Assembly (NCBI GenBank): GCA_002897895.1
Contig: BDSY01000037.1
Location: forward strand, 7,306 to 71,305
Length of the DNA stretch: 64,000 bases
Direction: 5' to 3'
Source: a bacterium BMS3Abin06
GTDB taxonomy: Bacteria; Nitrospirota; Thermodesulfovibrionia; UBA6902
Shown: positions 1,345 through 58,734 of the stretch, piece after piece
How positions within the stretch are numbered: the first letter of the stretch is position 1
How the letters are laid out: every line of letters begins with the position of its first letter
Notes under the pieces: model-generated
What the model saw: the letters and a program-made list of their open reading frames with translations, nothing else
Database searches by the model: none
Told to the model about the DNA's origin: nothing
Made by a program: the position numbers and the translations under genes

Positions 1345-2902
1345 TTCCGCGCCCTTCTTTCTTCAGGTCAAATTCTATTGCATGTTGAAAAAATAAAACC
1401 CTGTTATATATAGAAGACAACCGGCGTCTATCCGGCACAAGCATATTCTTTAGAACATGCCATATCAGCCATGGATGCCGGAGCAGTTTGCGGAGAAAGA
1501 GCATAAATAATAATAAAGGCTGTTTCCGCGTCACATATTTTTTCACATCATCCAAAAGATCGGGATCGAATTCCGGGGTTTTTATTATGCCCTTATTCAA
1601 AAAAGCTGCTGAAAGATTATCTATTGCCGGTTCACGGACAAAATAATCATTCTCCTCGCATATATCGTATAGTTGTGTACCATACAACGGCACAGCCATT
1701 CCCAAGCCTCCAAAACATTCATATTTCCACATCGCTTCGAGAATATAATCGGCTGTAGCCTTAATCTCCTCTTTTGTCTCGCCGGGCAGACCAACCATAA
1801 AAAACGCACGGGTATCCACACCCACTTTGCGCGCAAGTTTCATTGTCTCCTCAATTCCGGACAGGGTAATGCCTTTCCGGACAACGTTATTCAGCACACG
1901 CTGAACACCCGACTCTACCCCAAAAATAAGATGCGTGCACCCGGATGCTTTACATTTCTTTAAAAGTTCCTCATTAAACGTATCGGCACGTACACCATTC
2001 GGCGTATCCCAGCGTATATCCCAACCATTCTCAATAATACCGTCCAGTATCCTTGCAAAACGTTTTGAATCAAATGAAATATTATCGTCCTCAAAATGCA
2101 AATATTTTATGCCATACTCTTCCATAAGTAGTTGTATGTGTTTTAATACATACTCCGGAGAATGTGCCCGCCATCTCTTTCCCATATGAATATGGATAGA
2201 ACAAAAAACACAATTAAAAGGGCACCCTCTGCTCGTTATTAAACTCACGCCCCTTTCCCACCCGTCAAAACTATATGCAGTGCGTGAAGAATATTCTTTA
2301 ATCAGCGAGAAATATTTTTTCATATCTATTAAATGATAGGCCGGGAAAGGCAGTGAATCTAAATCATCAATATAAATATTATCCGATACAAATACCTTAT
2401 CCCCTGTTTTATAGGCTATGCCGGGTATCCCCTCAAAAGATGAATTATTATATATCCTCTCAACTAATTGAGGCATAACATATTCCCCTTCAGCCCTCAC
2501 AGCCACGTCCACAGAATCACAACTTCTGATAATATCTTCATACCTTACACTTACATGAGCCCCCCCTATGACTACTTTGCAGTCCGGATTAATTTCCTTG
2601 CATAATTCAGCCATCTTAAGAGCATTCGGCCATTGAAAAGTAAACTGGGCAGAGATACCGACTATATCAAAATCTTTATTCAGGAGACGGTGCTTCATAT
2701 CCTCAAATGTGATGCCGAAGAAATTTTCTCCTCCCTCTTTTACCTCTCTCTCCGGCATTATCCCATCGATAACCTCCACTTGGTATCCCTTTTCAATAAG
2801 GACAGAAGCGATCTGAAGCAAACCCAGAGGCAAATATGTCATCGGTCTGGTTCTATGAGGCAAATATCTTTCAGGTGGTCTTAAAAGAAGTATGCTTTTC
2901 AT
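1337..2902 (-). CDS. B12-binding radical SAM protein
   Basis: N-terminal B12-binding-like domain (EVIDGIMP..., VVIGGAHVS). Radical SAM cysteine motif CPFNCVFCS. Confidence 0.75.
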   Translation of the reverse strand: MKSILLLRPPERYLPHRTRPMTYLPLGLLQIASVLIEKGYQVEVIDGIMPEREVKEGGENFFGITFEDMKHRLLNKDFDIVGISAQFTFQWPNALKMAELCKEINPDCKVVIGGAHVSVRYEDIIRSCDSVDVAVRAEGEYVMPQLVERIYNNSSFEGIPGIAYKTGDKVFVSDNIYIDDLDSLPFPAYHLIDMKKYFSLIKEYSSRTAYSFDGWERGVSLITSRGCPFNCVFCSIHIHMGKRWRAHSPEYVLKHIQLLMEEYGIKYLHFEDDNISFDSKRFARILDGIIENGWDIRWDTPNGVRADTFNEELLKKCKASGCTHLIFGVESGVQRVLNNVVRKGITLSGIEETMKLARKVGVDTRAFFMVGLPGETKEEIKATADYILEAMWKYECFGGLGMAVPLYGTQLYDICEENDYFVREPAIDNLSAAFLNKGIIKTPEFDPDLLDDVKKYVTRKQPLLLFMLFLRKLLRHPWLIWHVLKNMLVPDRRRLSSIYNRVLFFQHAIEFDLKKEGRGSE

Positions 2903-3981
2903 TGAGAAACTGCCATTAGCGAATTATAAAGCTTCTCTATTTCTTTTGTATTCTTTTTTATATCAAAAAAGTGCTCTGCCCGACTTCTCACTTTTTCCCT
3001 CATATCACGAAGAATCTGTCTGTTTTTTATTATCTTTTCTATTATAGATGCCAATTCCAGATCATCGCCTGCAGGAAAAAGAAATTCCTTTAAATCCTCT
3101 CCCAGAGCTTCTTTATTGGCTGATAGATCAGAAGCAATAACAGTTTTACCCATAGCCATGGATTCAATTATTATTCTCGACAATCCTTCCCCTTTAAACG
3201 ATGGCAACACAACAACATCAACAGCAGCAATATCATCCAGAATATCTCTTTTATAATCCTTGAATACCACATTGGTATTAACGGACAGACTCTTAAGCTC
3301 TTCTAAATACTGCCGGTCTCCATCTCCCATGATTATTAATTCCACTTTTTCACTAAGTCTACTGACTGCCCTGACAAGAACCTCTATGCCTTTTCTTTTT
3401 TCTACCCTTCCAAAATAACCAATTCGTAAAAATTCGTTATCTTCGTATTTAGTTAAAGGTCTAAACATATCCAGTTCCACCCCATTATAAACAACACGGA
3501 TTTTATCCTTCTTATCTATCAATTTGAACCTGTTCGCTGCGGATTGAGAAACTGCTATCATAGAATCAGCGATGTTAAATAGAATCCTGTCCAACCACAA
3601 AAATGAATCCGATACCCTTAGATGAAGGATAACAGGCAGACGGCAGAGTTTTCCGGCTAAGGCAGCATAAAAAGTTTCCCTGGGCGATTCTGTATGAATT
3701 AAATCGATTCTTTCTTTTTTTATTATTCTCCATAAATTAATTAGCCTGCTTACTGTAAGAAACAAGTTAAAAGACCTTATTCTGGGAAAGGGAAGAACAA
3801 ATATCTTTACTCCTGATTTTGTGATCTCTTCAGACAATTCATCTCTCCCTGGAACTATCAAAAATGGCGTAAATCTCTCTTTATCAAGATGTTTTATCAG
3901 TAAATACAGACTCCTCTGTCCACCGCCGCGAAGAGAACTAAAACAGCTTGTAAACAGAATATTATATTTTGCTTTCTTCAA
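2899..3981 (-). CDS. glycosyltransferase family 1 (GT4-like)
   Basis: C-terminal GT1 motif EGLSRIIIESMAMGKTVIASD. Overlaps neighbours by 4 bp, operon-style. Confidence 0.75.
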   Translation of the reverse strand: MKKAKYNILFTSCFSSLRGGGQRSLYLLIKHLDKERFTPFLIVPGRDELSEEITKSGVKIFVLPFPRIRSFNLFLTVSRLINLWRIIKKERIDLIHTESPRETFYAALAGKLCRLPVILHLRVSDSFLWLDRILFNIADSMIAVSQSAANRFKLIDKKDKIRVVYNGVELDMFRPLTKYEDNEFLRIGYFGRVEKRKGIEVLVRAVSRLSEKVELIIMGDGDRQYLEELKSLSVNTNVVFKDYKRDILDDIAAVDVVVLPSFKGEGLSRIIIESMAMGKTVIASDLSANKEALGEDLKEFLFPAGDDLELASIIEKIIKNRQILRDMREKVRSRAEHFFDIKKNTKEIEKLYNSLMAVSQ

Positions 3982-7867: not shown

Positions 7868-9295
7868 TTAAGTTCGAAACACTATTTTCCTGAAATATTC
7901 CTGATCCTGTCTATCCACGCCCCCAATCAGCACGATGACTGCAAAATATCCTATTGCACTGAAAAAAATAATTGCGGCTAACGGAAGATGGAGAAAAAAA
8001 GCAAAATAGGTAAAGCATCCCATAATACCCGCTGCAATTAGCGGCTTTAATGTTGAGTATGCCAGGGCCTTGCCATAGCTGCGCGTCTTTTTCAGAATGC
8101 AGGACATAGGAACACCTAAACCATAAGAAACAAAAGTAGCAATTGCCGCTCCTACAATGCCATATGGTGGAATTAATAAAAGGTTAAGTATTATGTTAAC
8201 TACCGCACCGGAAGATGTAAAAATAAAATCCAGTTTCTGTAACCCCGTAGAGATTAAAATATTAATATGAACAGCCCCCAAAAAAACAAAAACCTCAGAC
8301 CAGATCAGTATTCTGAGTGCCTGGACAGACCAAATGAATTGTTCACCAAAGAGAATCCTTATAGCAGGTTCAGATAAAATAGAAATTCCAACTGCAATTG
8401 GCATTATCAGTATAGACATATATTTAAAACTGAGAGCATACGCCTTTTCCAATTTTTCCCCTGAGGCTAAAAAATATTCGGAGAAAAGAGGGAAGACAGA
8501 AGTCATAAACGCTGCCGGAATAATGTTAAATGCCTCTGTTAATCTTACTGCAACCGCATAATTGCCAACCGCTTGAGCCCCCTTCATCTGGAAAAGCATT
8601 ATTTGATCGATTCTATTATAAATCATAATAAAAGTTGCTGTCAGGGCTATAGGCCAGGATTCCTTGAAAAGATTCTTCCATATTTTAAAATCAATCTCAA
8701 ACTTTGGCCTGACATATCTCCTCGATAAACGCAGGATAATCAAGAATTCTGAAAAAGCAGCAATAATGCCAGCAATTATGAACCAGAGAAGCGGAGCCTT
8801 CATGAATATAAGATAAAGGAATATGGTCAATTTCAGAACACTGCTAAAGATATTGGCCAGGGTGGGGTATTTCATCTCCAGATCAACCTGGAACATCAAC
8901 CCGTATAAGGAGCCAAAGGATAAAAGAAAGCTTAAAGAGGCGACATAAACCAATAGTTTCGTATCAAAAGGGTATTTCAAAAATGTAATGATGAGACAGG
9001 CCAATAACAGAGCAAATACCGAAAGGACAACCTTCATAATAATGGCATTGCCAAGGAGTTTATCTGCTTTTGATCTATCGCGGGATAGATCTCTCACTAA
9101 GATAGCTCTTATCCCCAAGTCCATTAAAATACCAAAAAACTCTAAGTAGGCAAAGACAAATGAGTAAATCCCGAAGTTGCTCGTCCCCAGATAGCGGGTA
9201 AGGAAAATCAGCATCACCAGACCTATCAACCTACTGACGATTCGGCCGGCAATAATTACTCCGGTGTTCCTTGCTATCCTGCGCACGGTCTCCAT
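7868..9295 (-). CDS. wzx: polysaccharide flippase, Wzx-like (MOP superfamily)
   Basis: 475 aa, about 12 predicted membrane helices, typical oligosaccharide flippase N-terminus. Confidence 0.65.
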   Translation of the reverse strand: METVRRIARNTGVIIAGRIVSRLIGLVMLIFLTRYLGTSNFGIYSFVFAYLEFFGILMDLGIRAILVRDLSRDRSKADKLLGNAIIMKVVLSVFALLLACLIITFLKYPFDTKLLVYVASLSFLLSFGSLYGLMFQVDLEMKYPTLANIFSSVLKLTIFLYLIFMKAPLLWFIIAGIIAAFSEFLIILRLSRRYVRPKFEIDFKIWKNLFKESWPIALTATFIMIYNRIDQIMLFQMKGAQAVGNYAVAVRLTEAFNIIPAAFMTSVFPLFSEYFLASGEKLEKAYALSFKYMSILIMPIAVGISILSEPAIRILFGEQFIWSVQALRILIWSEVFVFLGAVHINILISTGLQKLDFIFTSSGAVVNIILNLLLIPPYGIVGAAIATFVSYGLGVPMSCILKKTRSYGKALAYSTLKPLIAAGIMGCFTYFAFFLHLPLAAIIFFSAIGYFAVIVLIGGVDRQDQEYFRKIVFRT

Positions 9296-9337
9296 AAGAA
9301 TTTCTTTAAAATAAATTACTACTGTTTACCTGTAGAG

Positions 9338-10711
9338 TTACATATCTTTCTGGGAAAACATAGCAATTTTCGGCAGCATTACTACTATTGCCGTCAAAAA
9401 CCAGAATGGCTCCATAATACGGATAATAATAAATGTACTGGCAGAAAAAGCCTGAAATAACAGCCCGATAAAACCGGCCAAAAATCCCAGGGTTAACCCC
9501 CGGGCCCAATCGTCTTTCATAAGGTTGAGAGTCCGTGTCCCCTCCCAGAAAATACTTGCCATCAACCAGACAAATACCAAAAAACCGATCAGACCTGTCT
9601 CTCCCAGGACACGGGCATATTGTGAATCAACAAAACCGACACCTGTAACCCCATATCCTAAAATGGGGCGTTTGTACCATTTCTCTATTACATATTTCCA
9701 TATCTCTATACGCGCTGCGCCGGATTCTGCAAATGTGATCTGTCTGCCGAACACAGTATAGACTTCTCCTCCTTGAGCAAAGGTAGAGGATATCCGGTCA
9801 TAAACTGATTCAGGGAATAAAATTGGCGACAAAACAATAATAATTAACAGACATATCAATAAAATATGCCGTGCCTTTTTTTTAGTTAATATTATCATGG
9901 AAATATACATCGGGATAAAACCCAGCCATGCGCCCCGGGACAGTGTAAATATAAATGGCGGCACCATAAAACAAAGAAGCCCCAAGAGTGCAATTCGCTG
10001 TCTTACCGAGTTAGAATATAAAATAAGCCCCATAACTATCGCTATCATTAAAAGTAAATAACCCGCCAGGGTATTCGCCTCTCCGCTCTCTATCCCGTCA
10101 AAAGGGGCGGCAACCCGTGTAACTCCTGTAAGATGCAGTTGCCACGCATAAGCACTGACTAAAAAACAGGTCAGCAATATAAAAAATGTAAACATCCTCA
10201 CCTGTCTTATATTTTTTATATTGTTGCTTACCATAAAAAAAAGCAGGAAATATTCAAAATATTTCAAGAGGTAAAAAAAACTTTCTTTATAACCGGTGTA
10301 TCCTTGCAATATACCCAGGCCTGTGGCTAACAGACATATTAATATATAGAAGAGGATAGGTCTGTTAAGAGAAGTAACCCTTGACAGGGCAAGCTCTTTG
10401 TTTACAGCCATCTTGGCCAGCCAGCCCAAAAAGACCACGAACAAAAATATATCATCCATCCGCAAAACAACGGCCCTGCCTCTAATCCCTCCCACCGGCA
10501 ACTCGGGCGACAGCAGCATTGAAAAGATCAGGATAACCAGCGCTGCATCGGTATTTGTAAAGGCGATTATAAATATAGTTACTGCAAGGAGAAAAATAAC
10601 GGGAAATTGAGGGGGTATTTTAAAAATGTTCAAGAGTGCTACAGCAACAAGAAAGAGTAAGGCAATTACAATAACAAGGCTTGTCTGTCCATTTTTATTC
10701 ATTTTTATCAC
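9338..10711 (-). CDS. O-antigen ligase / Wzy-like polymerase
   Basis: 457 aa polytopic membrane protein with a large periplasmic loop, as in the O-antigen ligase family. Confidence 0.55.
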   Translation of the reverse strand: MIKMNKNGQTSLVIVIALLFLVAVALLNIFKIPPQFPVIFLLAVTIFIIAFTNTDAALVILIFSMLLSPELPVGGIRGRAVVLRMDDIFLFVVFLGWLAKMAVNKELALSRVTSLNRPILFYILICLLATGLGILQGYTGYKESFFYLLKYFEYFLLFFMVSNNIKNIRQVRMFTFFILLTCFLVSAYAWQLHLTGVTRVAAPFDGIESGEANTLAGYLLLMIAIVMGLILYSNSVRQRIALLGLLCFMVPPFIFTLSRGAWLGFIPMYISMIILTKKKARHILLICLLIIIVLSPILFPESVYDRISSTFAQGGEVYTVFGRQITFAESGAARIEIWKYVIEKWYKRPILGYGVTGVGFVDSQYARVLGETGLIGFLVFVWLMASIFWEGTRTLNLMKDDWARGLTLGFLAGFIGLLFQAFSASTFIIIRIMEPFWFLTAIVVMLPKIAMFSQKDM

Positions 10712-30150: not shown

Positions 30151-30157
30151 AAGCGTT

Positions 30158-30264
30158 CACAGGGTGCAGGGAGCAGTTGTCAGGGGGCAGAATGAAATTT
30201 AAAAGATTTAGATGTGTGGAAAAGCCATGCTGGTTGGTTTTTGCTGCACCCTGCACCCTGACAA
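30158..30264. repeat. dispersed repeat family B (CAGGGTG core), copy 1
   Basis: cagggtgcagggagcagttgtcagggggcagaatgaaa...ctgcaccctgcaccctgaca. Its reverse complement recurs at 48662..48792. Confidence 0.75.
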
Positions 30265-45531: not shown

Positions 45532-46257
45532 TTACTGTACATGACCTTTAATTACTTTTAGGGTTTTATTGAGATCGTTTGACCTTCGTCTTGCGACCGG
45601 CACTAAAGGAATATCTTTTTTATTAAAGTCAATAATATTTTGGCCTTTTACATTTTGTATTATTCTATGAACATTATCCAGGTTGACTAAAAAACTCCTG
45701 TGAACCTTAAAAAGTTTTTCACCGGTATATTTTTTCTCTATCTCACTTAATGTCACTCGCAGATAGTACTGCTCACTCTCCGTAAATACCCTGCAATAAT
45801 TTCCTTCGCTTTTTATCAGGTAGATAGAGGGAATATTGAGAAACAGATATGAACTGCCGTTATAGACAGGAATCTTCCTTATTTCGGCAGTTTCGATTTT
45901 TTTATTAATCTCAGCGTCCTTTTGCCCGGTAACGTCAATAAAGGTCATGATTAAAAAATGCCTTAAGGAAGCATCTCCTGACTCTATCCGGCATATATTA
46001 ACTGCTAAAACCCTGTTCAATACATTCATTATAATAGGAGAAGAAAAATCGTCCGCTGGTCTGCACGCCTTTTTCAGGAGACCCTTTAGCCTGGAATGGA
46101 CTTTGGGAGGATGATATTCATAAACGCTTTTTCCGATTTGAGAAGGATTGATCTGTAATACCCGGGAAGCGTATTCATTAATGCCGATTACCCGGTGCCC
46201 AAGTGACAAAATCACCACACCGATACTAAGATGACCGTTTAAACCATCATTTTTCAT
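45532..46257 (-). CDS. PAS-domain / LytTR DNA-binding regulator
   Basis: C-terminal LytTR signature YYLRVTLSEIEKKYTGEKLFKVHRSFLVNLDNVHRI. PAS-like N-terminus. Confidence 0.6.
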   Translation of the reverse strand: MKNDGLNGHLSIGVVILSLGHRVIGINEYASRVLQINPSQIGKSVYEYHPPKVHSRLKGLLKKACRPADDFSSPIIMNVLNRVLAVNICRIESGDASLRHFLIMTFIDVTGQKDAEINKKIETAEIRKIPVYNGSSYLFLNIPSIYLIKSEGNYCRVFTESEQYYLRVTLSEIEKKYTGEKLFKVHRSFLVNLDNVHRIIQNVKGQNIIDFNKKDIPLVPVARRRSNDLNKTLKVIKGHVQ

Positions 46258-46309: not shown

Positions 46310-46994
46310 TTATCCCCTGAACAGGGTTACTGCCTCTAAGAGGGAGTTTACCTGGAGCTTTCTGTATATGTTCTTCTGGTGACTGCGAACTGTTTCGTAA
46401 CTTATGTGAAGGGCATCCGCCGTTTTCCTTGTGTTATAACCTTTTGAGAGATATTCGAGCACCTCTGTCTCTCTCTGTAAGCGCTTTAATCTCCGGCTTC
46501 TTCAATTTTTTTGGGATCTCCCTGAACTCATTGAGTACCCGCCGGGCCATGTCCATGGACATGGGGGCGCCGCCTTTGACTGCTTCATCTATTGCGCTAA
46601 CAATCTCTGAAAGGGATGCCTCGTTTTTTACTATGTAGCCTATTGCCCCTGCTTTAAGGGCTGAGAACAGATGTTCGTCATCGTTATAGACTGTAAGGAC
46701 GAGCAATTCCGTATTGCAGCCCTTTTCTGAAATTTCCTTTATAATTTCTACACCTGAGATGTCGGGCAGCCCAAGGTCTATGAGGGCTACATCAGGACGT
46801 TTTTCGATTATCCCTTTAATTGCATCCTTACCTGTGGTATATGAGCCCGCTACTTCGATTGAAGGTGTGTCCACAAAGAGAAGCCTTACACTTTCAAGAA
46901 ATCTGGGATCATCCTCAACTATTACTATCCGTACCGGCTTCTTTGCATCCATGCAAGATTTTAAACTTATATTGCCCCTTTGTAAATCCCTCAA
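46310..46994 (-). pseudogene. NarL/FixJ-family response regulator (REC + LuxR HTH) with a frameshift in a (TC)4 tract
   Basis: REC domain VRIVIVEDDP...ALIDLGLPDISG. The LuxR HTH (RETEVLEYLSKGYNTRKTADALHISYETVRSHQKNIYRKL) lies in the +1 frame beyond 46468..46476. One extra GA unit would restore LTERETEVLEYL. Confidence 0.6.
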
Positions 46995-48590: not shown

Positions 48591-48661
48591 TCTTATCCGG
48601 TATAATTTACTATTGTCTCAGTATATCATTCAATAAACCTTAATGTAACTGTGCAAAGGGA

Positions 48662-48792
48662 ACAGTTGTCAGGGTGCAGGGTGCAGAAAAAACAGATTAA
48701 ACCAACCAGCATGGCTGACAGCTCTCTGGTTTCTCTAATCCACTGCTTTCATTCTGCCCCCCCCTGACAACTGCTCCCTGCATCTTGCCGCA
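48662..48792. repeat. dispersed repeat family B, copy 2 (inverted relative to 30158..30264)
   Basis: ttgtcagggtgcagggtgcag...ccagcatggctgacagc...tttcattctgccccccctgacaactgctccctgcat. Confidence 0.75.
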
Positions 48793-50459: not shown

Positions 50460-51611
50460 ATGGAGGTGGCGATGGCAAGAAAAACAAAACGCGCAAAATT
50501 GAATTTAACCGAAAACGAACACAACAAACTTGAACTATTAAGCAACTCACGTACAGCCCCATTAAGGGAAATACAAAGAGCTCGGATATTGCTGCACTAT
50601 GCCGATGAGTTGCCGATCATCGAAATACAGAAAATGGTTAATATAAGCCGGCCAAGCATCTACAAATGCATTGATAAGGCATTGGCTGCCGGTACTGAAG
50701 CTGGTTTGAAAGATTATTATCACAGACCATTTGATCCAGTCATTACAGATGAAGCAAGAGCTTGGGTTATCAACCTTGCATGTACGAAGCCAAAAGATCA
50801 TGGAATGGCTGCCGAGCTTTGGACCCACAATGAACTTGCCAAATATACACGTAAACATGCCCCGGAGCAAGGGCATGAATGCTTGTCCAGAGCAGCGAAA
50901 GCAACTATCTGGAGAATATTATCTGCTAACGCCGTGCGACCTCACAAGATTAAATATTATCTTGAGAGAAGAGATCCTGATTTTAAACAAAAGATGCAGG
51001 AAGTCCTCATGGTCTACCAGGAAGTCAACATTCAAAACGAACAAAATATAGCTAACGGTGAGCATCCAATGTTTATCACCGTTTCAGTCGATGAAAAACC
51101 TGGCGTACAGGCCATTAAAAATATTGCTCCCGACTTACCACCCAAGCCAGGGGTACACAAAACAGTGAGCAGGGACTATGAATACAAGCGACTTGGCACT
51201 GTTTCGATACTTGCCGCCCTGGACTTGCACAATGGTAATATCTTAGCACAGGTACACGACCGGCACCGCAGCAGAGAATTTATTTCGCTACTGAAAGAAC
51301 TTGATGAATATTATCCACCTGAGAGCACAATTCGCATTGTGCTTGACAATCATTCGTCTCATATTTCAAAAGAAACAATGAAGTATCTTGAGTCGCGACC
51401 AAGTAGATTTATCTATGTGCATACGCCTAAACATGGGTCATGGTTGAATTTGGTTGAATCTGTATTTTCTAAGATGGCTCGAACATTTTTAAGGCATATA
51501 AGAGTCAACTCAAAAGACGAACTTAAAGATCGTATTCTTCAGGGCATCAATGAAATCAACTCTTCCCCTGTAGTTCATAGGTGGGAAAAGTTCGATCTTG
51601 CTGTTGTTTAA
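50460..51611 (+). mobile_element. IS630-family transposase (DDE_3)
   Basis: N-terminal HTH, and a DDE_3 core (VSVDEKPGVQA...IVLDNHSSH...LNLVESVFSKM). Confidence 0.8.
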
Positions 51612-51622
51612 ATGTAAGCATT

Positions 51623-52087
51623 TTAATGAATCGAAATAGTAGATTTAAAATGCGATTCATAATGATCTAACCCTTGCCATTCGTCAATGCTACTAATACC
51701 ACCGTGTACCAGTTCTGATCTTAAATCGAATAATTTACCTATCTTCCTTCTTATCTCTATATCCTCCAAACGCATTCCCCCTGCCAGTATGTTATAGGCT
51801 ATATTCAATACATGATCCGATTCATGATACGGTATATGTACTTTTAATAACTTCAGATTTGCATCAATCTCTTTTATCAATCCTGTCTTTTTTGCCATCT
51901 GGTGAAACACTCCTATTCCCCCGCAATTAATTGCCTTATTCTTCTCGCTCATCTCGTAATGTATGTTGCTCCCCTTCATTATCGGCTCCGATTGATTCTC
52001 CCATTGCTTCCTTCTCAATCGACGCTCTATTCTCTGTTTACGATTCCTGATTATTTTGCTATACTTACGTTTAATTATTCGGCTCAC
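51623..52087 (-). pseudogene. 5' fragment of an IS1380-family transposase, truncated by the IS630 insertion
   Basis: N-terminal 154 aa with the IS1380-type layout (NCGGIGVFHQMAKKTGLIKEIDANL...), cf. ISEcp1 NAGLFLLLENAKSNGIFDFIEN. It ends 12 bp from the IS630 ORF. Confidence 0.45.
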
Positions 52088-52255
52088 TTGAAATGCCCCT
52101 TTCTTTGGTTAGTCTGTTTTTTCGTGCTTCTATTTTAACCGATAGATTCGGGCATTTCTACTCTTTTCTGTTATTTTACTTAGTAAATCACGCTTGCTTA
52201 AGGACTAAAAGTAGCTGCCTCGACTCAAAATCAGGCTTTTAGCTGCGGACTCCGG

Positions 52256-52615
52256 TTGTTTGAATGCATGAATCTACGTATACATAATTTTAATTTTGAT
52301 AATTCTGTTTTAACTGTACATGACGGCAAAGGGAAAAAAGACAGGACAGTTCCTCTGCCGGAAAAGATAATCCCGGAATTAAAAGCCCATCTTGAACGTG
52401 TTATAAATTTACATCAGAAAGACCTGGACGCGGGTTATACCGGAGCTTTTATGTTTGGTTTATTGGAGAAGAAATATAAAAATTGCGCAAAAGAGTTAAT
52501 CTGGCAGTGGTATTTTCCGGCAAAACAATTAACTTTAGTTCCTGGAACAAAGGAAATCAGAAGATACCATTTTCACGAAGCTCAGGTGCAAAGGGCGATT
52601 AAAATTGCGGAATGA
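52256..52615 (+). pseudogene. intI: internal fragment of an integron integrase (IntI)
   Basis: LTVHDGKGKKDRTVPLPEKI matches IntI1 IVREGKGSKDRALMLPESL. FMFGLLEKKYKNCAKELIWQWYFPAK...RRYHFHEAQVQRAIKIA matches the IntI-specific insertion ([24 protein letters not shown]...RRHHMYDQTFQRAFKRA). It lacks the N-terminal domain and the C-terminal RHY catalytic region. Confidence 0.6.
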
Positions 52616-52624
52616 CGGAAAGAT

Positions 52625-53104
52625 TTAACTTGCAAAAGCAGTGTTGCCCTCTGAAACAACGACTAACGGACACTTCAGGTTTTTCCATGCATTTGCTATG
52701 ATTTTATCCGCCTTCTTATTATGAATATCAACGCCTTCTGAAACCTCTGCAACAACAAAAAGTATATCACCTTTTGCGTCGGTATAATTACGTATCTCTT
52801 GTTCCAGAGAGCCGCTTTTTTGAATAATTCCGTAATCTATCCCTTCCTTTCTGAGTTGTGATCTGAATTCCTTAAGCAGCCCTGCTGCAATTTCAGAGAC
52901 ATAAAGGATCTCCATGCCTGCGCCTATGCGTTTACATGTATTCAGCGCATACCTGAAGGCATTCCTGTCTCCTTCCCCGCCTCTCAGGGCAAGTAGTATA
53001 GTACGCTCTTCCTTTAAGCTTTCTTTTGCTGTTTCAAACTCTCCTGCCTCTGCAAATGCAACGGCAGCCATTGCGTTTTCAAATTTCCTGAGCCATCTTT
53101 TCAT
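52625..53104 (-). CDS. USP-like domain protein with N-terminal AFAEAGEFETA motif
   Basis: C-terminal DILFVVAEV...CPLVVV resembles universal stress proteins. The N-terminal motif is shared with the next gene. Confidence 0.4.
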   Translation of the reverse strand: MKRWLRKFENAMAAVAFAEAGEFETAKESLKEERTILLALRGGEGDRNAFRYALNTCKRIGAGMEILYVSEIAAGLLKEFRSQLRKEGIDYGIIQKSGSLEQEIRNYTDAKGDILFVVAEVSEGVDIHNKKADKIIANAWKNLKCPLVVVSEGNTAFAS

Positions 53105-53242: not shown

Positions 53243-53524
53243 TTACCTCTTAATGCCCGGAGCCCGTAACTGCTTCCTGGTTCCCGGTGTAGTACGGTCC
53301 CTCTTTTGAGGCCTTTTTTCCTGCCTCATGATATCCCTTGCGGTCTCATGTTCACCGGCTTCCGCAAATGTAACAGCCGTCATTACTCTTTCGAACCAGT
53401 TGAGGCGCTCTCTCCTTTCAGGCCTGATTTCTCCTGCAATCTGTCTTGCAGTCTCAAACTCTCCTGCCTCTGCAAATGCTGCGGCAGCATAAACATCTTC
53501 CAGTTTTTTCATTCCCTTTTTCAT
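53243..53524 (-). CDS. small protein with 2x AFAEAGE(F/H)ETA repeat
   Basis: YAAAAFAEAGEFETARQIAGE and MTAVTFAEAGEHETARDIMRQ. The DNA repeat ctcctgcctctgcaaatgc is shared with 52625..53104. Confidence 0.3.
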   Translation of the reverse strand: MKKGMKKLEDVYAAAAFAEAGEFETARQIAGEIRPERRERLNWFERVMTAVTFAEAGEHETARDIMRQEKRPQKRDRTTPGTRKQLRAPGIKR

Positions 53525-54011
53525 GATTCTTTCCTCCTTTATTATTATTGATTTATTCTCTCTTTATACTCTTTTACTATCAATTTCCATGCCAGCTCAT
53601 CTAAAGTAAGATAACTTGCTGTATTTACAATAAAAAAATGATTTATATTGCGCCAGCCTATTTTTTGCAATATGTTGCTATTCGCAACGGCATATATGCC
53701 GGGAGGGAAAAAATCAAATCAGATGAAGGGTTCCGGCGATGTAACATTAATAAATGCAATTGATTCAATATGCAACAGGCATACTGAAAAAGGTAAAATA
53801 AAATGGTACGGCTAAACTCTTACAAAAAAAAATCAGTCCTTTGTGTAAAATAAGTTTACCGGGGAAATTCAGTTAACCGTAAGAGTCTTCCTGTTATCAA
53901 CCCGAACGAAGAGGGATGCTATAAGTCAAAAGATTTCTCACTTCACTCGAAATAACAGAATCTCAGGGTGTTTGCGAATTCGTCAATATTAAAAAAAGCG
54001 GGATATAAGGT

Positions 54012-56015
54012 TTGGGCATATTCAGAAAATCAGAAGAAGACATTCAAGCCGCCACAGTAGAAGAGTTGCAGGAGATGATTGACTCGGCCAACCTGCCCTC
54101 CCGTGCCCGTCAAGTCGCAGATAAAGAACTCGCTATGTTATCGAAGATAAGTCCAAGTACTGCCGAATATACAATAGGACTTACCTATATTGATTATCTT
54201 CTCGGACTGCCGTGGAATAAAAAAACAAAAGACAACCTCGATCTTCAGATGGCCGGGAAAATACTTGACGAGAGACACTATGGCCTGCAGCAGATCAAGG
54301 AGAGAATACTGGAACACCTGGCTGTAAAGATACTGGTGAATCACAAAAAGCCGCGCATACTGGTGGTAGATGATGAAAAGATTGCCCTCGAAAACCTGGA
54401 GCCTGTCCTGAAAAAAGAAGGATATGCGGTCTCTACTGCAGACAGCGGCGCAGGGGCTTTAAGAAAAATAGATACAAATGATTTCGATGTGGTTATAACA
54501 GACCTTAAGATGAAAGGGATTAACGGGATTGATGTGCTCGAAAAGGCCAGGAGCAAATGCCCTGATACACAGGTGATTATGTTTACGGGTTATGCCACGA
54601 TAGACTCTGCTGTAGAGGCGATAAAAAAAGGGGCATTCAATTATATTACAAAGCCCCTTAAACTTGACAATGTGCGGGCCGTGGTCAAAGAAGCCCTTGA
54701 GAAAAAATATTACAGGAGGGCATCAGGGGGGTCTCTCCTCTGCTTTGCAGGGCCTCCCGGAACGGGCAAGACTTCTCTGGGCAGGGCGGTTGCAGATGCG
54801 CTTGGAAGAAAATTTGCGAGGATATCACTCGGCGGCATAAAGGATGAGGCGGAAATTATGGGGCACAGGAGGACATATGCCGGGGCAATGCCGGGGCGGA
54901 TCATAGATGAAATCTATCGCAGCGGAGTTTCAAATCCCCTTCTTATGCTGGATGAGCTGGATAAGATACCCCAGGATTTTAAAGGCGATCCTTCATCGGC
55001 TTTGCTGGAAGCGCTTGATCCTGAGCAGAATCATGAATTCATCGACCATTACATAGATATGCCTTTTGATCTCTCCGGTGTGATGTTTATAGCAACCGCA
55101 AATATTGCCGACAATATCCAGGATGCCCTCAGAGACAGGCTGGAGGTCATTGAGTTTTCAGGATATACGGAGGATGAAAAAAAAGAGATTGCATTGCGCT
55201 ATCTTGTGCCAAAGCAAATTAATGAAAAGGGCTTATCGGACAGTCCCCCTGAATTCAGTGCTAAGGCTGTAACTAAAATTATCCAGGAACATACACGGGA
55301 GGCCGGTATAAGGAATCTTGAAAGGCAGATCGCCGCTGTCTGCCGGAAGATAGCCAGCGGTTACGTACACAATGAAGAAACAGATAAGACTATCAGGGTG
55401 ACACCGGAGCTGATTGAAAGGTATCTCGGTCCGAGAAAGTATTATTTTGAAGTTGCTGATGAAAAAAACCGCATCGGGGTTACAACGGGACTTGTATGGA
55501 CAGAGACGGGAGGCGCTATTATTTTTGTAGAGGCAGCGAAAATGAAAGGAAGCGGGGAACTCATTCTGACCGGGTCACTCGGTGATGTAATGCGCGAATC
55601 CGCACAGGCGGCCCTGAGCTATATAAGGAGCAATGCGGCATCCCTGAATATAGCCGAAGATTTCTTTGAAACACAGGATATTCATGTCCATGTTCCTGCA
55701 GGAGCCATACCAAAAGACGGCCCCTCTGCAGGGACGACAATCGCCATAGCGCTTATTTCACTCCTGACCGGCAGGCCTGCAAAAAGAGAAGTGGCAATAT
55801 CAGGTGAAATGACCTTGAGTGGAAGAATTCTTCCTGTCGGGGGGATTAAAGAAAAATTACTTGCTGCGCGTCAGGCCGGCGTAAAAGTAATAGTTATGCC
55901 GATTAAAAATAAGGTCGACCTAGAGAGCCTTCCCCGGGATGTCAAAACAGGACTGGAAGTTATTCATGTGGATAATGTAGATGAAATTATTGACCTGGTA
56001 TTAATGAAACAATAG
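54012..56015 (+). CDS. lon: Lon-family ATP-dependent protease with embedded response-regulator receiver (REC) domain
   Basis: A short Lon N-terminal fragment ending HYGLQQIKERILEHLAV is followed by a REC domain of about 125 aa (ILVVDDE...VITDLKMKG...MFTGYA...ITKPLK). Then a Lon AAA+ module (GPPGTGKTSLG) and a protease domain (PKDGPSAGTT, Ser-Lys dyad). Confidence 0.8.
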   Translation: MGIFRKSEEDIQAATVEELQEMIDSANLPSRARQVADKELAMLSKISPSTAEYTIGLTYIDYLLGLPWNKKTKDNLDLQMAGKILDERHYGLQQIKERILEHLAVKILVNHKKPRILVVDDEKIALENLEPVLKKEGYAVSTADSGAGALRKIDTNDFDVVITDLKMKGINGIDVLEKARSKCPDTQVIMFTGYATIDSAVEAIKKGAFNYITKPLKLDNVRAVVKEALEKKYYRRASGGSLLCFAGPPGTGKTSLGRAVADALGRKFARISLGGIKDEAEIMGHRRTYAGAMPGRIIDEIYRSGVSNPLLMLDELDKIPQDFKGDPSSALLEALDPEQNHEFIDHYIDMPFDLSGVMFIATANIADNIQDALRDRLEVIEFSGYTEDEKKEIALRYLVPKQINEKGLSDSPPEFSAKAVTKIIQEHTREAGIRNLERQIAAVCRKIASGYVHNEETDKTIRVTPELIERYLGPRKYYFEVADEKNRIGVTTGLVWTETGGAIIFVEAAKMKGSGELILTGSLGDVMRESAQAALSYIRSNAASLNIAEDFFETQDIHVHVPAGAIPKDGPSAGTTIAIALISLLTGRPAKREVAISGEMTLSGRILPVGGIKEKLLAARQAGVKVIVMPIKNKVDLESLPRDVKTGLEVIHVDNVDEIIDLVLMKQ

Positions 56016-56060
56016 GCCGCAATATTGCATACATAGTGCAACTGCAATATATTGTTCAAA

Positions 56061-56090
56061 AAAAACCCTTTGATATCAAAGGGTTTTTTT
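56061..56090 (+). terminator. rho-independent terminator after lon
   Basis: AACCCTTTGATATCAAAGGGTT hairpin followed by T7. Confidence 0.7.
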
Positions 56091-56211
56091 AATGATTGTT
56101 GCATATTAATCGTTGAAAGTTGCATTTTGCAATGATTATTGGTAAACTTTAATATATCAACCCGCCGGGATGGCAAAATTGTTTACAAAAACAAATTAAA
56201 GGATAAATGCA

Positions 56212-57564
56212 ATGGGGAGATTACTGATTGTAGACGACGAAGAACTTACCCTGGAAAACCTGGAATATGCGATGAAAAAAGAGGGGTATGAAGTTGTCTG
56301 CGCAAACAACGGCTCAATAGCCCTCAAAAAATTAGAAAAACAGGAATTTGATGTTGTAATGACGGATTTGCGCATGGACAAGGTAGACGGCATACAGGTG
56401 CTTACAAGATGCCGCTCACTCTATCCTGACTCAGAGGTAATCATGATTACGGCCTATGCCTCGCTGCCCTCAGCTATTGAGACAATGAAAAAAGGCGCCT
56501 ATTACTATATAGCAAAACCCTTCAAGCTCGATGAAGTAAGAAAGGTCGTGAAGGAGGCATTTGAGAAGGTAAAGCTGAAAAGAGAAAATGCACAGTTGAG
56601 GGAGCAGTTGGAAAGCTTTAAAGGAAAAGTGAAAATCATAAGCCAGGATCCGAAAATGGAGAGTCTGCTCAGCACTGCCCGGCAAATAGGACCAACTGAC
56701 TGTAATGTCATTCTCAGCGGAGAAAGCGGAACCGGCAAGGAGTTGTTTGCCCGGTATATCCACGCATACAGTAAAAGGGCTGATAAACCTTTCTTTGCAA
56801 TTAACTGCGGCGCCTTTGCGGAGAGTATTCTGACAAGCGAGCTTTTCGGACATGAAAAGGGGGCCTTTACCGGGGCATCGGGAATGAAGCAGGGCTTGAT
56901 TGAAATGGCTTCAGGGGGAACCCTTTTTTTAGATGAAATAACTGAAATGGAGCCGTCAATGCAGGTAAAGCTCCTGAGAGTTATCCAGGAAAAAGAGGTG
57001 TTAAGGCTGGGCGCCACAAAGCCGGTGAAAATTGATGTCAGATTTATTGCAGCAACAAACCGTGACATTAAAGAGTCAATCAAGACCGGCCGGTTCAGGG
57101 AGGATCTCTTTTTCAGATTAAACGTTGTCGCCTTTTATATCCCCCCCCTTGCTGAACGCAGGGATGATATACCGCTGCTGAGCTATTACTTCCTGAAAAA
57201 ATTTTCAACCCTCATGGGCAAGGATGTCACAGAGATTAAAGAGGATGTTATGCCGATCCTTATGAGCTATGATTTCCCCGGCAATGTACGGGAGCTGGAA
57301 AATGTGATTGAAAGAGGTGTTGCGCTTGCCAATGGAAATGCAATTGAAATTTTTCACCTCCCTGAAGACCTTAGAGACCTGAGCATTAAAACCTTCAGAA
57401 AAAAGGGGGGCAGAATCCCGTCTCTTGAAGATCAGGAGCTGGCTTATATTCAATGGGTGCTGGAGCAAGTCGGCGGCAACAAGACACTGGCTGCCGAAAC
57501 TCTCGGAATAGACAGGGTATCACTCTGGAGAAAACTGAAAAAATACGAACTGGAAAAAACGTAA
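56212..57564 (+). CDS. sigma-54-dependent response regulator (NtrC family: REC + AAA + Fis-HTH)
   Basis: REC LLIVDDE...VMTDLRM. Sigma-54 activator motifs GESGTGKE and GAFTGA. C-terminal HTH. Confidence 0.85.
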   Translation: MGRLLIVDDEELTLENLEYAMKKEGYEVVCANNGSIALKKLEKQEFDVVMTDLRMDKVDGIQVLTRCRSLYPDSEVIMITAYASLPSAIETMKKGAYYYIAKPFKLDEVRKVVKEAFEKVKLKRENAQLREQLESFKGKVKIISQDPKMESLLSTARQIGPTDCNVILSGESGTGKELFARYIHAYSKRADKPFFAINCGAFAESILTSELFGHEKGAFTGASGMKQGLIEMASGGTLFLDEITEMEPSMQVKLLRVIQEKEVLRLGATKPVKIDVRFIAATNRDIKESIKTGRFREDLFFRLNVVAFYIPPLAERRDDIPLLSYYFLKKFSTLMGKDVTEIKEDVMPILMSYDFPGNVRELENVIERGVALANGNAIEIFHLPEDLRDLSIKTFRKKGGRIPSLEDQELAYIQWVLEQVGGNKTLAAETLGIDRVSLWRKLKKYELEKT

Positions 57565-58057: not shown

Positions 58058-58290
58058 TCTTTATACCTCTCTTTACTAATGGTTTAAAGGAATTTATTCC
58101 TTGTTTTTATTTTACTATAAAAAAGCTTTATAGCGCAATATATTGTATTTAAATTAATTGGAAGCGCTATATGAAGTATGCTGATGATAGGCCGTGGATC
58201 TGAAATAAAGAATTATATCCCCCTGATAAAAGGCCTGAAGAACCGGATTTATCCGACTGTTCCGGGGGCTTTTGTTAGCAAAAAGCGACA

Positions 58291-58377
58291 GGGAATGATA
58301 AAGGGAATGATAAAGGGAATGATAAAGGGAATGATAAAGGGAATGATAAAGGGAATGATAAAGGGAATGATAAAAGG
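58291..58377. repeat. perfect 12-mer tandem repeat (GGGAATGATAAA)x7
   Basis: Read directly from the sequence. It lies between convergent or unrelated ORFs. The overlapping ORFs (MIKG)n and (YHSL)n are translation artefacts. Confidence 0.9.
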
Positions 58378-58734
58378 AAGTTTGCAGTATTAAAACGAAA
58401 GAATGGATGCTGACCGGTTTAGGGGACATGGCTGAAGTTAAAGGTTGGGCTCTTAGCGTAGGCAGGGAAATAACCTTTTACTCAGTGGTCAGCATCCATT
58501 TTTTCGCATTATCTGGATAATGCGGTTTATGTCTGATGTTTAATTCTTCCTGATATTCTCCTTCGTCATAATGTGTATACTCTACATTGTACAAAAACTA
58601 TATTTATTTGTCAAAGTCCGTCTCGACTCACATAAGATTTATCCCGGGCTGAATCGCTGCCTCATTCAAAATCCATTTTTAGAATAGCAAATTTGCCTCT
58701 CAAAGTTCAAGCAAAGAAAGACAGATTGTAATGA

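What the first reader, a model, noticed from the sequence alone, without database searches (positions are those of the whole stretch)
54012..56015. Lon protease with a response-regulator receiver domain in place of most of the N-domain; the REC is a paralog of the adjacent NtrC-type regulator's REC
Only about 105 residues of the Lon N-domain remain, ending in the conserved HYGL..KERILE..LAV segment. A complete REC domain follows (DD pair, phospho-acceptor Asp in VITDLKM, Thr in MFTGYA, Lys in ITKPLK), then the AAA+ and Ser-Lys protease modules. The REC is roughly 50% identical to the REC of the sigma-54 activator encoded 200 bp downstream. Its sequence RILVVDDEKIALENLEPVLKKEGYAVS...FDVVITDLKMKGINGIDVL compares with RLLIVDDEELTLENLEYAMKKEGYEVV...FDVVMTDLRMDKVDGIQVL. 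This implies domain duplication and fusion. It also implies that one histidine kinase may coordinately control transcription via NtrC and proteolysis via Lon, making a phosphorylation-gated Lon.
Basis: partly seen in the sequence, partly recalled or inferred. Interest (0 to 1): 0.7.

Follow-up and report, generated by a model that had tools for sequence, protein, structure and literature searches.

The report
Lon protease carrying a receiver domain
This gene encodes an ATP-dependent Lon protease with a two-component "receiver" switch spliced in just before its ATPase motor; it belongs to a conserved family already noted in sulfate reducers (DVU3303 type) whose biochemistry nobody has tested.

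Summary
ORF 54012..56015 (+, 667 aa) is a LonA-type protease. It lacks the globular N-domain and carries a complete receiver (REC) domain, 57% identical to the REC of the sigma-54 activator 196 bp downstream.

The REC does not sit where the lost N-domain was. It is a clean ~125-residue insertion between the HYGL...LAV helix and strand beta1/Walker A of the AAA+ module.

This is not a misassembly or a pseudogene. Hundreds of ~666-aa homologues in Nitrospirota and Desulfobacterota share the architecture, with the phospho-acceptor residues and the Lon catalytic residues invariant. dN/dS against a 92% relative is 0.17.

The system is already published. In Desulfovibrio vulgaris, DVU3303 (Lon response regulator), DVU3304 (kinase) and DVU3305 (sigma-54 activator) were called a "three-component system", with phosphorylation-dependent proteolysis proposed in 2011 and cofitness >0.9 reported in 2023. 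I found no biochemistry.

Lon-REC and activator-REC are sister clades in every genome checked, so the duplication is ancient rather than local.

This window is atypical. No histidine kinase lies anywhere in its 64 kb, whereas 13 of 16 related loci have one. The divergent operon ends at mobile-element debris.

Verdict: a new member of a known, uncharacterised kind.

The parts
54012..56015 (+). REC-Lon gene (667 aa, TTG start): a DVU3303-type Lon response regulator
   Evidence: ORF. Pfam and NCBIfam domains. 100% identical to P0001, 'lon protease [bacterium BMS3Abin06]'. dN/dS 0.165 against L003.
54012..54344 (+). Retained N-terminal helical segment (residues 1-111), ending in HYGL..KERILEHLAV. 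It is equivalent to E. coli Lon ~251-350.
   Evidence: phmmer alignment to 3m6a and 6u5z. AF2 predicts helices 8-25, 30-45, 51-65, 78-88 and 93-111.
54345..54725 (+). Inserted receiver domain with short linkers (residues 112-238). D120/D121, phospho-acceptor D164 (54501-54503), T192 and K214. A long alpha5 helix (218-237) runs straight into AAA+ beta1.
   Evidence: Pfam Response_reg 116-225, E 4e-29. Invariant residues in 79 sequences. AF2 secondary structure. dN/dS 0.24.
54726..55391 (+). AAA+ module: Walker A G247-T254, pore-loop Y289, Walker B D314/E315, Arg finger R376, sensor-2 R434, Lon lid.
   Evidence: Pfam AAA and Lon_lid. Invariant columns. Foldseek to LonA structures, TM up to 0.82.
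55392..56012 (+). S16 protease domain with the Ser572 (55725-55727) / Lys615 (55854-55856) dyad.
   Evidence: Pfam Lon_C E 5e-84. S572 and K615 invariant. Codons checked.
56212..57564 (+). Partner sigma-54 enhancer-binding response regulator (REC, Sigma54_activat with GAFTGA, HTH_8); a DVU3305-type protein.
   Evidence: Pfam. 72% identical to the L001 EBP that follows the kinase. Its REC is sister to the Lon REC.
53674..53688 (.). Exact GTTGC-N5-GCAAC palindrome in the divergent intergenic region. It matches the EMSA-validated DVU3305 site type.
   Evidence: Motif from Rajeev 2011 supplement. Equivalent sites upstream of Lon in L001, L003, L005, L066, L068 and L069.
56119..56133 (.). GTTGCATTTTGCAAT: a one-mismatch EBP-type site upstream of the EBP gene.
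53579..53594 (-). Sigma-54-like -24/-12 element TGGCATGGAAATTGAT, 55 nt upstream of the 93-aa gene.
   Evidence: not significant alone. The same element sits at the same place in L003, L066, L001, L068 and L069.
53243..53524 (-). 93-aa protein with two copies of the 'AFAEAGExETAR' motif; first gene of the divergent operon.
   Evidence: No Pfam or NCBIfam family.
52625..53104 (-). 159-aa protein with one N-terminal FAEAGE motif; orthologue of the L001 164-aa and L066 158-aa proteins.
56059..56090 (+). Terminator-like hairpin between the Lon and EBP genes. It lies within a 64-nt stretch that is absent from L003.
50460..52615 (.). Mobile-element debris (IS630-type DDE_3 transposase 50460..51611, an unassigned ORF with no Pfam match 51623..52087, phage-integrase fragment 52256..52615). 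It occupies the place where relatives carry the transporter, Usp and (in L066) the kinase.
   Evidence: Pfam. Colinearity with L003 ends at ~52599. Contexts of relatives.

Best explanation
The gene encodes a response regulator whose output is a Lon protease, a member of the DVU3303 family.

It is a LonA that starts at the helical segment preceding the AAA+ module and has no globular substrate-binding N-domain. A CheY-like receiver is spliced between the alpha0 helix (HYGL..LAV) and strand beta1/P-loop.

In the typical system, one membrane histidine kinase (DVU3304 type) is encoded with two paralogous receivers. One is fused to a sigma-54 activator. That activator binds GTTGC-N5-GCAAC sites and drives a divergent operon of FAEAGE-motif small proteins, Usp proteins and an anion transporter. 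The other receiver is embedded in Lon.

The most likely mechanism (inferred) is that phosphorylation of D164 rearranges the alpha4-beta5-alpha5 face. Only 3-4 linker residues connect the receiver on each side, so this would reposition the alpha0 helix relative to the P-loop, or change ring assembly. ATP-dependent proteolysis would then be switched (probably on) in parallel with transcription.

In this window the kinase and transporter part of the cluster is missing. Both receivers are still under purifying selection, so the phospho-donor is presumably encoded elsewhere or is a small molecule.
For: Shown here:
- Domain order and a clean insertion point.
- A confident model with alpha5 (218-237) leading into beta1 (242-246) and the P-loop, and LonA fold matches.
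- All REC phosphorylation residues and all Lon ATPase and protease catalytic residues invariant in 79 homologues at 56-92% identity.
- The same architecture in every one of the 360 best-scoring clusters across three searches, from Nitrospirota, Desulfobacterales, Desulfobulbaceae and Magnetomorum.
- Only ~20 clusters at 50% identity, all with the same architecture, which indicates a compact family.
- Purifying selection in this lineage: omega 0.165 for the gene and 0.24 for the REC.
- A kinase within 10 kb in 13 of 16 related loci and the orthologous EBP in 13.
- Lon-REC and EBP-REC as sister clades, 48-61% identical, against 20-47% to other RECs in the same loci.
- EBP-type palindromes and a sigma-54-like promoter at conserved positions.

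From the literature:
- The association is conserved in Thermodesulfovibrio, Dechloromonas and Thioalkalivibrio (PMC3333781).
- The three genes have cofitness >0.9 (PMC10102598).
Against: - No biochemical or structural study of any family member was found. Phosphorylation, its direction of effect and the substrates are all inferred.
- The D. vulgaris cofitness could reflect polar effects, because DVU3303 is the first gene of the operon.
- I could not obtain the DVU3303 sequence. Its equivalence to this protein rests on the published description and matching gene neighbourhood and binding motif, not on an alignment.
- This window has no kinase in 64 kb.
- The alpha1 position that usually contacts the kinase is Pro here instead of the family's His. 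It is also changed in the partner EBP.
- The AF2 monomer gives no information on the hexamer or on REC-AAA+ contacts.
Confidence: 0.6

Rival explanations
1. Phosphate sink. The Lon-borne receiver competes with the activator's receiver for the kinase's phosphoryl groups and tunes transcription. Protease activity itself does not depend on phosphorylation.
For: Two highly similar receivers (57%) encoded with one kinase form the classic layout of sink or branched pathways. The alpha1 specificity positions are nearly identical between Lon and EBP in L001 (alignment).
Against: A sink needs only a ~120-aa receiver. Here a full ATPase and protease with invariant catalytic residues is conserved with it. 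Deleting a sink should give the opposite phenotype to deleting the activator, yet cofitness in D. vulgaris is >0.9 (caveat: polarity). The rigid 3-4-residue linkers on both sides suggest mechanical coupling rather than a passive appendage.
Confidence: 0.12
2. Substrate-capture module. The receiver pairs through its alpha4-beta5-alpha5 face with the paralogous receiver of the activator (or docks the kinase) and delivers that partner to Lon for degradation, giving negative feedback.
For: The alpha4-beta5-alpha5 region and alpha5 are about as conserved between the two paralogues as the rest of the domain (alignment). The protein lacks the normal substrate-binding N-domain, so some other recognition element is needed.
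Against: Degrading the activator predicts opposite mutant phenotypes, but cofitness is strongly positive (with the polarity caveat). L067 has REC-Lon with a kinase and a single-domain receiver but no EBP. There is no direct evidence of heterodimers.
Confidence: 0.12
3. In this particular genome the receiver is an orphan that no longer signals. It serves only as a structural N-terminal cap, and the protease is constitutive or controlled by acetyl phosphate.
For: No kinase in the 64-kb window or in the 92% relative L003. The divergent operon is truncated at mobile-element debris. The family-conserved alpha1 His is replaced by Pro in Lon (3 of 79 sequences) and by Tyr in the EBP.
Against: D120/D121, D164, T192 and K214 are all retained. 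The REC is under purifying selection in exactly this lineage (omega 0.24). The EBP (omega 0.09) also keeps its receiver. Only 64 kb of the genome is visible, so a kinase may lie elsewhere. L066 shows that Lon-EBP adjacency with a distant kinase is a normal arrangement.
Confidence: 0.1
4. Artefact: a misassembled chimera of an NtrC-type gene and a Lon gene, or a truncated Lon pseudogene (TIGR annotated DVU3303 as 'ATP-dependent protease La, truncation').
For: The TIGR name. IS elements lie nearby.
Against: The identical architecture and length (~665 aa) occur in hundreds of independent assemblies, including contigs of 3.6 Mb, 3.85 Mb and 5.1 Mb. The N-terminus is conserved. There are no frameshifts. 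dN/dS is 0.17.
Confidence: 0.01

Closest known systems
DVU3303-DVU3304-DVU3305 'three-component system' of Desulfovibrio vulgaris Hildenborough (Rajeev et al. 2011, PMC3333781; Trotter et al. 2023, PMC10102598)
   Same: - A response regulator containing a Lon protease, encoded with a sigma-54 response-regulator activator.
- A divergent operon of hypothetical, membrane and Usp proteins.
- An activator site of the form GTTGC-N5-GCAAC.
- An association reported also in Thermodesulfovibrio, the same class as this window's organism.
   Different: This window has no kinase gene between or near the two regulators. It also lacks the transporter and Usp genes, and the divergent operon ends in IS and integrase debris. 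I could not align the DVU3303 sequence itself.
Canonical LonA (E. coli Lon, B. subtilis LonA, Meiothermus MtaLonA)
   Same: An AAA+ module and S16 Ser-Lys protease with all catalytic residues. It scores above the TIGR00763 cutoff. The fold matches LonA structures (TM up to 0.82). The helical segment preceding the AAA+ module is retained.
   Different: There is no globular N-terminal (PF02190) substrate-binding domain. The protein begins where N-truncated crystallisation constructs begin (3m6a). It has a 125-residue receiver inserted between alpha0 and beta1 of the AAA+ domain.
NtrC1/DctD/AtoC-type sigma-54 activators (REC-AAA+)
   Same: The receiver is most similar in sequence to these (1zy2, 1ny5, 4l4u, 3dzd; AtoC and NtrC NCBIfam hits). 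A receiver sits immediately N-terminal to an AAA+ ring ATPase through an extended alpha5 helix. In those proteins the receiver controls ring assembly.
   Different: The AAA+ module here is of the Lon clade with a protease attached, not a sigma-54 remodeller. The linker is much shorter (about 33 residues from the KP motif to Walker A, against about 68 in the neighbouring EBP). There is additional Lon sequence N-terminal to the receiver.
RssB (ClpXP) and CpdR (ClpXP): response regulators that control AAA+ proteolysis in trans
   Same: Two-component phosphorylation is coupled to regulated proteolysis by an AAA+ protease.
   Different: Those are separate adaptor proteins acting on ClpXP. Here the receiver is covalently built into the protease subunit itself, six per hexamer.
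CheB-type receiver-enzyme response regulators
   Same: A receiver fused to a hydrolytic enzyme whose activity is expected to depend on Asp phosphorylation.
   Different: In CheB the receiver is N-terminal and occludes the active site. Here it is an internal insertion next to the ATPase P-loop, far in sequence from the protease site.

Membership tests
LonA / endopeptidase La (TIGR00763) | Whole-protein score above the curated cutoff | tested here: met
   716.2 bits against a cutoff of 608.05, in two stretches split by the REC.
LonA / endopeptidase La (TIGR00763) | AAA+ module with Walker A/B, pore-loop Tyr, Arg finger and sensor-2 | tested here: met
   G247-T254, Y289, D314/E315, R376 and R434 are present and invariant in 79 homologues.
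LonA / endopeptidase La (TIGR00763) | S16 protease domain with a Ser-Lys dyad | tested here: met
   Lon_C E 5e-84. S572 and K615 invariant.
LonA / endopeptidase La (TIGR00763) | N-terminal globular LON substrate-binding domain (PF02190) | tested here: not met
   No PF02190 hit. The alignment to E. coli Lon begins at ~residue 251. The family N-terminus is conserved at this point.
Response regulators (CheY-like receiver) | Acidic pocket, phospho-acceptor Asp, and conserved Thr/Ser and Lys | tested here: met
   D120/D121, D164, T192 and K214. D121, D164 and K214 are invariant; T192 is T in 74 and S in 5 sequences.
Response regulators (CheY-like receiver) | (beta/alpha)5 fold | tested here: met
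   AF2 gives beta1-alpha1 through beta5-alpha5 at residues 115-237, with pLDDT mostly 84-89.
Response regulators (CheY-like receiver) | Phosphotransfer from a cognate histidine kinase | not testable with these tools
   Needs in vitro phosphotransfer. A kinase is linked in 13 of 16 related loci but absent from this window.
DVU3303-type three-component system | REC-Lon encoded next to a sigma-54 REC activator whose REC is its closest paralogue | tested here: met
   The EBP lies 196 nt downstream. The RECs are 57% identical and form sister clades.
DVU3303-type three-component system | Histidine kinase in the same cluster | tested here: not met
   No hit with tblastn or with a kinase HMM that does find kinases in a held-out locus. 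Pfam of nearby ORFs shows none.
DVU3303-type three-component system | Activator binding site GTTGC-N5-GCAAC in the promoter regions | tested here: met
   An exact site at 53674-53688 and a one-mismatch site at 56119-56133. These are 3 matches in 64 kb against 1.3 expected, so position rather than count carries the weight. The sites are conserved in relatives.
DVU3303-type three-component system | Divergent operon with hypothetical, Usp and transporter genes | tested here: inconclusive
   The first two genes (93 aa, 159 aa) are present and orthologous. The transporter and Usp genes are absent, replaced by IS and integrase debris.
DVU3303-type three-component system | Sequence orthology to DVU3303 itself | not tested
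   The DVU3303 sequence could not be obtained with these tools. The link rests on the published description, neighbourhood and motif.

The most novel reading that the evidence does not exclude
REC-Lon is a self-contained, phosphorylation-gated protease with its own dedicated clients. The 'AFAEAGExxTAR' motif marks the products of the co-regulated sigma-54 operon (small 58-93-aa proteins and Usp-like proteins). It would be a degron or docking tag read by the receiver-capped Lon ring in place of the missing N-domain. One signal would then both induce and time-limit these proteins. Separately, a receiver inserted in the AAA+ N-linker would be the first case of direct cis control of an AAA+ protease motor by Asp phosphorylation.
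Probability: 0.15. Interest if true: 0.7.

Novelty: new member of a known kind. Interest (0 to 1): 0.4.

Why it matters
Regulated proteolysis by AAA+ proteases is normally controlled through adaptors or substrate availability. A receiver built into each Lon subunit, right next to the P-loop, would be a direct phospho-switch on the motor.

The family is large in anaerobic sulfate-reducing and Nitrospirota lineages. It has genetic handles in D. vulgaris and exists in at least one cultured organism (Desulfobulbus propionicus DSM 2032), so the 2011 hypothesis is directly testable.

For this scan the result is mainly a calibration.

Tried and rejected
- **Misassembly or pseudogene.** Rejected by cross-assembly conservation and dN/dS.
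- **Recent local duplication of the neighbour's REC.** Rejected by the REC tree.
- **Other REC-Lon fusion types.** High-scoring multi-stretch representatives turned out to be tandem-AAA Lons or multi-REC kinases, not alternative REC-Lon layouts.
- **A kinase in the window.** tblastn, a custom HMM and Pfam of neighbouring ORFs all found none.
- **A kinase remnant in the Lon-EBP spacer.** There is none; the spacer holds only a hairpin and EBP-type sites.
- **A sigma-54 promoter in front of the Lon or EBP gene on the + strand.** No convincing match was found. The only good one drives the divergent 93-aa gene.
- **GTTGC-N4-GCAAC spacing.** No relevant hit. The N5 spacing is the correct one.
- **The genome-contig scan with the full protein.** It mostly returned canonical Lons, because the patterns fell in shared Lon regions.
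- **Searching with P0244 to reach Desulfovibrio.** It led to Desulfobulbaceae instead.
- **Family assignment for the FAEAGE proteins.** No Pfam or NCBIfam family matched.
- **Model coordinates.** They were not available, so I could not measure REC-AAA+ contacts.
Full report
**1. The observation**

The + strand ORF 54012..56015 encodes 667 residues from a TTG start. A 450-residue ORF follows at 56212..57564.

Pfam places four domains in the first protein: Response_reg at 116-225 (E 4e-29), AAA at 243-383, Lon_lid at 405-458 and Lon_C at 463-665 (E 5e-84). It finds no LON substrate-binding N-domain. The second protein is a standard REC / Sigma54_activat / HTH_8 activator.

NCBIfam's endopeptidase La model scores 716 bits against a cutoff of 608, in two stretches. 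The remaining hits are receiver domains of AtoC, NtrC and ZraR type.

The two receivers align without gaps at 57% identity over 117 residues (E 9e-50).

**2. Anatomy**

Alignment to solved Lon sequences shows where the receiver sits:
- B. subtilis Lon (3m6a) positions 7-104 match query 13-110, and positions 106-530 match query 238-664.
- E. coli Lon 251-350 and 349-772 match query 16-115 and 240-665.

So no Lon residue is missing at the junction. About 125 residues (receiver plus short linkers) are inserted between the helix carrying HYGL..KERILEHLAV and strand beta1, which leads into Walker A. Separately, everything equivalent to E. coli Lon 1-~250, the globular N-domain, is absent.

An AlphaFold2 model built on 79 homologues has mean pLDDT 80 and pTM 0.62. 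It shows helix 93-111, a three-residue linker, then a regular (beta/alpha)5 receiver. The receiver's alpha5 is a 20-residue helix (218-237), ending four residues before AAA+ beta1 (242-246) and the P-loop. The model superposes on LonA structures with TM up to 0.82 on the target.

It follows from the known CheY fold that beta1's start and alpha5's end lie on the same face, opposite the phosphorylation site. This makes such an insertion geometrically easy. The alpha0-beta1 junction is the 'N-linker' of AAA+ proteins. That it transmits the signal here is my inference.

**3. Is it real and functional?**

The protein is 100% identical to a database entry from 'bacterium BMS3Abin06' (Nitrospirae). 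The 120 best clusters (69-100% identity) are all ~666 aa with a receiver, mostly from Nitrospirota/Thermodesulfovibrionia MAGs, some on contigs of 0.9-3.6 Mb.

A Desulfonema homologue (58% identity, L005) leads to a second large set in Desulfobacterales, Desulfobulbaceae and Magnetomorum. A third set includes Desulfobulbus propionicus DSM 2032.

An exhaustive search of 1.84 billion representatives with residues 1-330 finds only about twenty 50%-identity clusters that match in one piece. The rest are ordinary Lons matching in two pieces, or unrelated multi-REC or tandem-AAA proteins. The family is therefore compact, with a single architecture.

In 79 aligned members the following are invariant:
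- receiver residues D121, D164 and K214, with T192 as T or S;
- Walker A, Y289, D314/E315, R376 and R434;
- the S572/K615 dyad.

Against the 92%-identical relative L003, dN/dS is 0.165 for the gene, 0.24 for the receiver and 0.09 for the activator. Misassembly and pseudogene explanations are excluded.

**4. Neighbourhood**

Related loci carry the same set of genes in varying order:
- REC-Lon;
- a HAMP-HisKA kinase;
- the orthologous sigma-54 activator;
- divergently from Lon, a small protein, a ~160-aa protein, a TauE or CitMHS transporter and Usp proteins.

This pattern appears in L001, L004, L005, L066, L067, L068 and L069. It also appears in the metagenomic loci L071-L074, L076 and L081.

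Of 16 loci with usable flanks, 13 have a kinase within 10 kb and 13 have the partner activator. The window and L003 lack the kinase. L077 has only 1 kb of downstream sequence, so it is uninformative.

In the window:
- tblastn with two linked kinases finds nothing.
- An HMM built from nine linked kinases finds nothing, although it does recover the kinases of L004.
- Pfam of the surrounding ORFs shows no kinase.

Beyond the 159-aa gene the window carries an integrase fragment, an unassigned ORF with no Pfam match, and an IS630-type transposase, followed by hisG. Colinearity with L003 stops 26 nt past that gene.

L066 shows that direct Lon-activator adjacency, with the kinase on the far side of the divergent operon, is a natural arrangement. 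The window looks like that arrangement with the distal part lost. This is an inference.

**5. Receiver phylogeny**

I built a neighbour-joining tree and identity matrix from 23 receivers drawn from the window and eight related loci, plus E. coli CheY as outgroup. Lon receivers and partner-activator receivers form two sister clades.

Cross-clade identity is 48-61% in every genome, in both Nitrospirota and Desulfobacterota. Identity to other receivers in the same loci is only 20-47%.

It was not a duplication in this genome.

In L001 the alpha1 positions that contact kinases in studied systems (established knowledge from Spo0F/OmpR work) are almost identical between the two paralogues. That would fit a shared kinase. 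In the window lineage, the family's conserved His (70 of 79 sequences) is Pro in Lon and Tyr in the activator.

**6. Literature**

Rajeev et al. 2011 (PMC3333781) described a 'three-component system' in D. vulgaris:
[quoted passage not shown] - They report that the association and the binding site are conserved in other Desulfovibrio, Thermodesulfovibrio yellowstonii, Dechloromonas and Thioalkalivibrio.
- Their EMSA-validated site contains GTTGCGATATGCAAC.

Trotter et al. 2023 (PMC10102598) report pairwise cofitness >0.9 for the three genes.

The window has an exact GTTGC-N5-GCAAC at 53674-53688 and a one-mismatch copy at 56119-56133. Related loci have such sites at equivalent positions. They also share a sigma-54-like TGGCAT-N5-TTGAT element in front of the divergent small gene.

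Six literature searches found no biochemical or structural work on any REC-Lon.

**7. Mechanism**

Shown:
- a catalytically complete Lon with a phosphorylation-competent receiver rigidly inserted next to the P-loop;
- conserved linkage to one kinase and a paralogous receiver-activator;
- a conserved cis-regulatory layout.

Inferred:
- the kinase phosphorylates both receivers;
- phosphorylation of D164 changes Lon's ATPase cycle or ring assembly, by analogy with NtrC1/DctD-type activators, its closest receiver relatives;
- the change is activating. This is consistent with the same-direction phenotypes in D. vulgaris, with the caveat that insertions in the first gene may be polar.

Substrates are unknown. 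The rivals are a phosphate sink, capture of the activator for degradation, and an orphan non-signalling receiver in this genome. They are weighed in the rival explanations above.

**8. Verdict**

The finding is real and correctly described, apart from the position of the receiver and the age of the duplication. It is an instance of a published but biochemically untested system, here in a kinase-less and partly eroded locus.

Interest is moderate. The mechanism would be notable if demonstrated, but the idea and the architecture are not new.

Noticed in passing
window 53243..53524(-) and 52625..53104(-); L001 12071..12247(-), 9136..9630(-), 2580..3146(-); L004 9663..9854(+); L066 7203..7679(-); L068 and L069 divergent operons: A short motif, hhxxhhAFAEAGExxTAR, sits near the N-terminus of several proteins of the divergent sigma-54 operon: small 58-93-aa proteins ending in LRAPGI(K/G)R, and ~104-185-aa Usp-like proteins. 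The strict pattern FAE[AE][GN][ED] hits 17 times in 7 of 9 REC-Lon loci and 0 times in 1.08 Mb of control loci. It matches no Pfam or NCBIfam family. It may be a degron, an adaptor or a regulator for REC-Lon.
   Followed up: partly
window residues P131 of REC-Lon (54402-54404) and Y19 of the EBP (56266-56268): The alpha1 position that is His in 70 of 79 REC-Lons and in all other partner EBPs examined is Pro in the window and L003 Lon, and Tyr in their EBP. Both paralogous receivers therefore changed the same kinase-facing position in the kinase-less lineage.
   Followed up: partly
window ~52599 and 50460..52615: Colinearity with the 92% relative L003 ends 26 nt beyond the 159-aa gene. The window continues into an integrase fragment, an unassigned ORF with no Pfam match, and an IS630-type DDE_3 transposase, where relatives carry the transporter, Usp and kinase genes.
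   Followed up: partly
window 56054-56117: A 64-nt stretch containing the perfect 14-bp-stem hairpin AAAAAAACCCTTTGATATCAAAGGGTTTTTTT is present between the Lon and EBP genes here but absent from L003. It may be a small inserted terminator or MITE-like element.
   Followed up: no
L003 488-544 and 618-690 versus window 48641-48697 and 30151-30224: Short ~91% identical DNA matches scattered at unrelated window positions. They suggest a small dispersed repeat in these genomes.
   Followed up: no
window 58290-58379: A 12-nt tandem repeat, AGGGAATGATAA, in 7.5 copies at 98% match. It generates the spurious 'YHSLYHSL...' ORF 58154..58429(-).
   Followed up: no
P0250, P0253, P0254, P0257 (representative proteins): Lon proteases of 890-1170 aa with two tandem AAA+/Lon_lid modules before a single Lon_C domain. 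This is a different unusual Lon architecture that surfaced in the representative search.
   Followed up: no
P0255 and P0258: REC-Lon-like fragments (377-382 aa) in which the Walker A motif is degenerate (CFEGPSYEAHLSLGK and CFTSGSDDRKAAVGK). They may be pseudo-ATPase offshoots of the family.
   Followed up: no
P0241: A 568-aa representative in which a REC-Lon sequence breaks off inside the protease domain and continues in frame into a FAEAGEFDTAR-type tail. It is either an assembly chimera or a natural deletion fusing Lon to the neighbouring small protein.
   Followed up: no
window 46434..46994(-) and 45532..46257(-): A stand-alone receiver protein (186 aa) and a LytTR DNA-binding protein with a weak, sub-threshold PAS match lie 7-8 kb upstream, also without any kinase nearby.
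   Followed up: no
window 54001-56000: G+C is 0.467 across the Lon gene, against 0.40-0.42 in the flanking 2-kb bins. Together with the patchy cross-phylum distribution, this may reflect cassette transfer.
   Followed up: no
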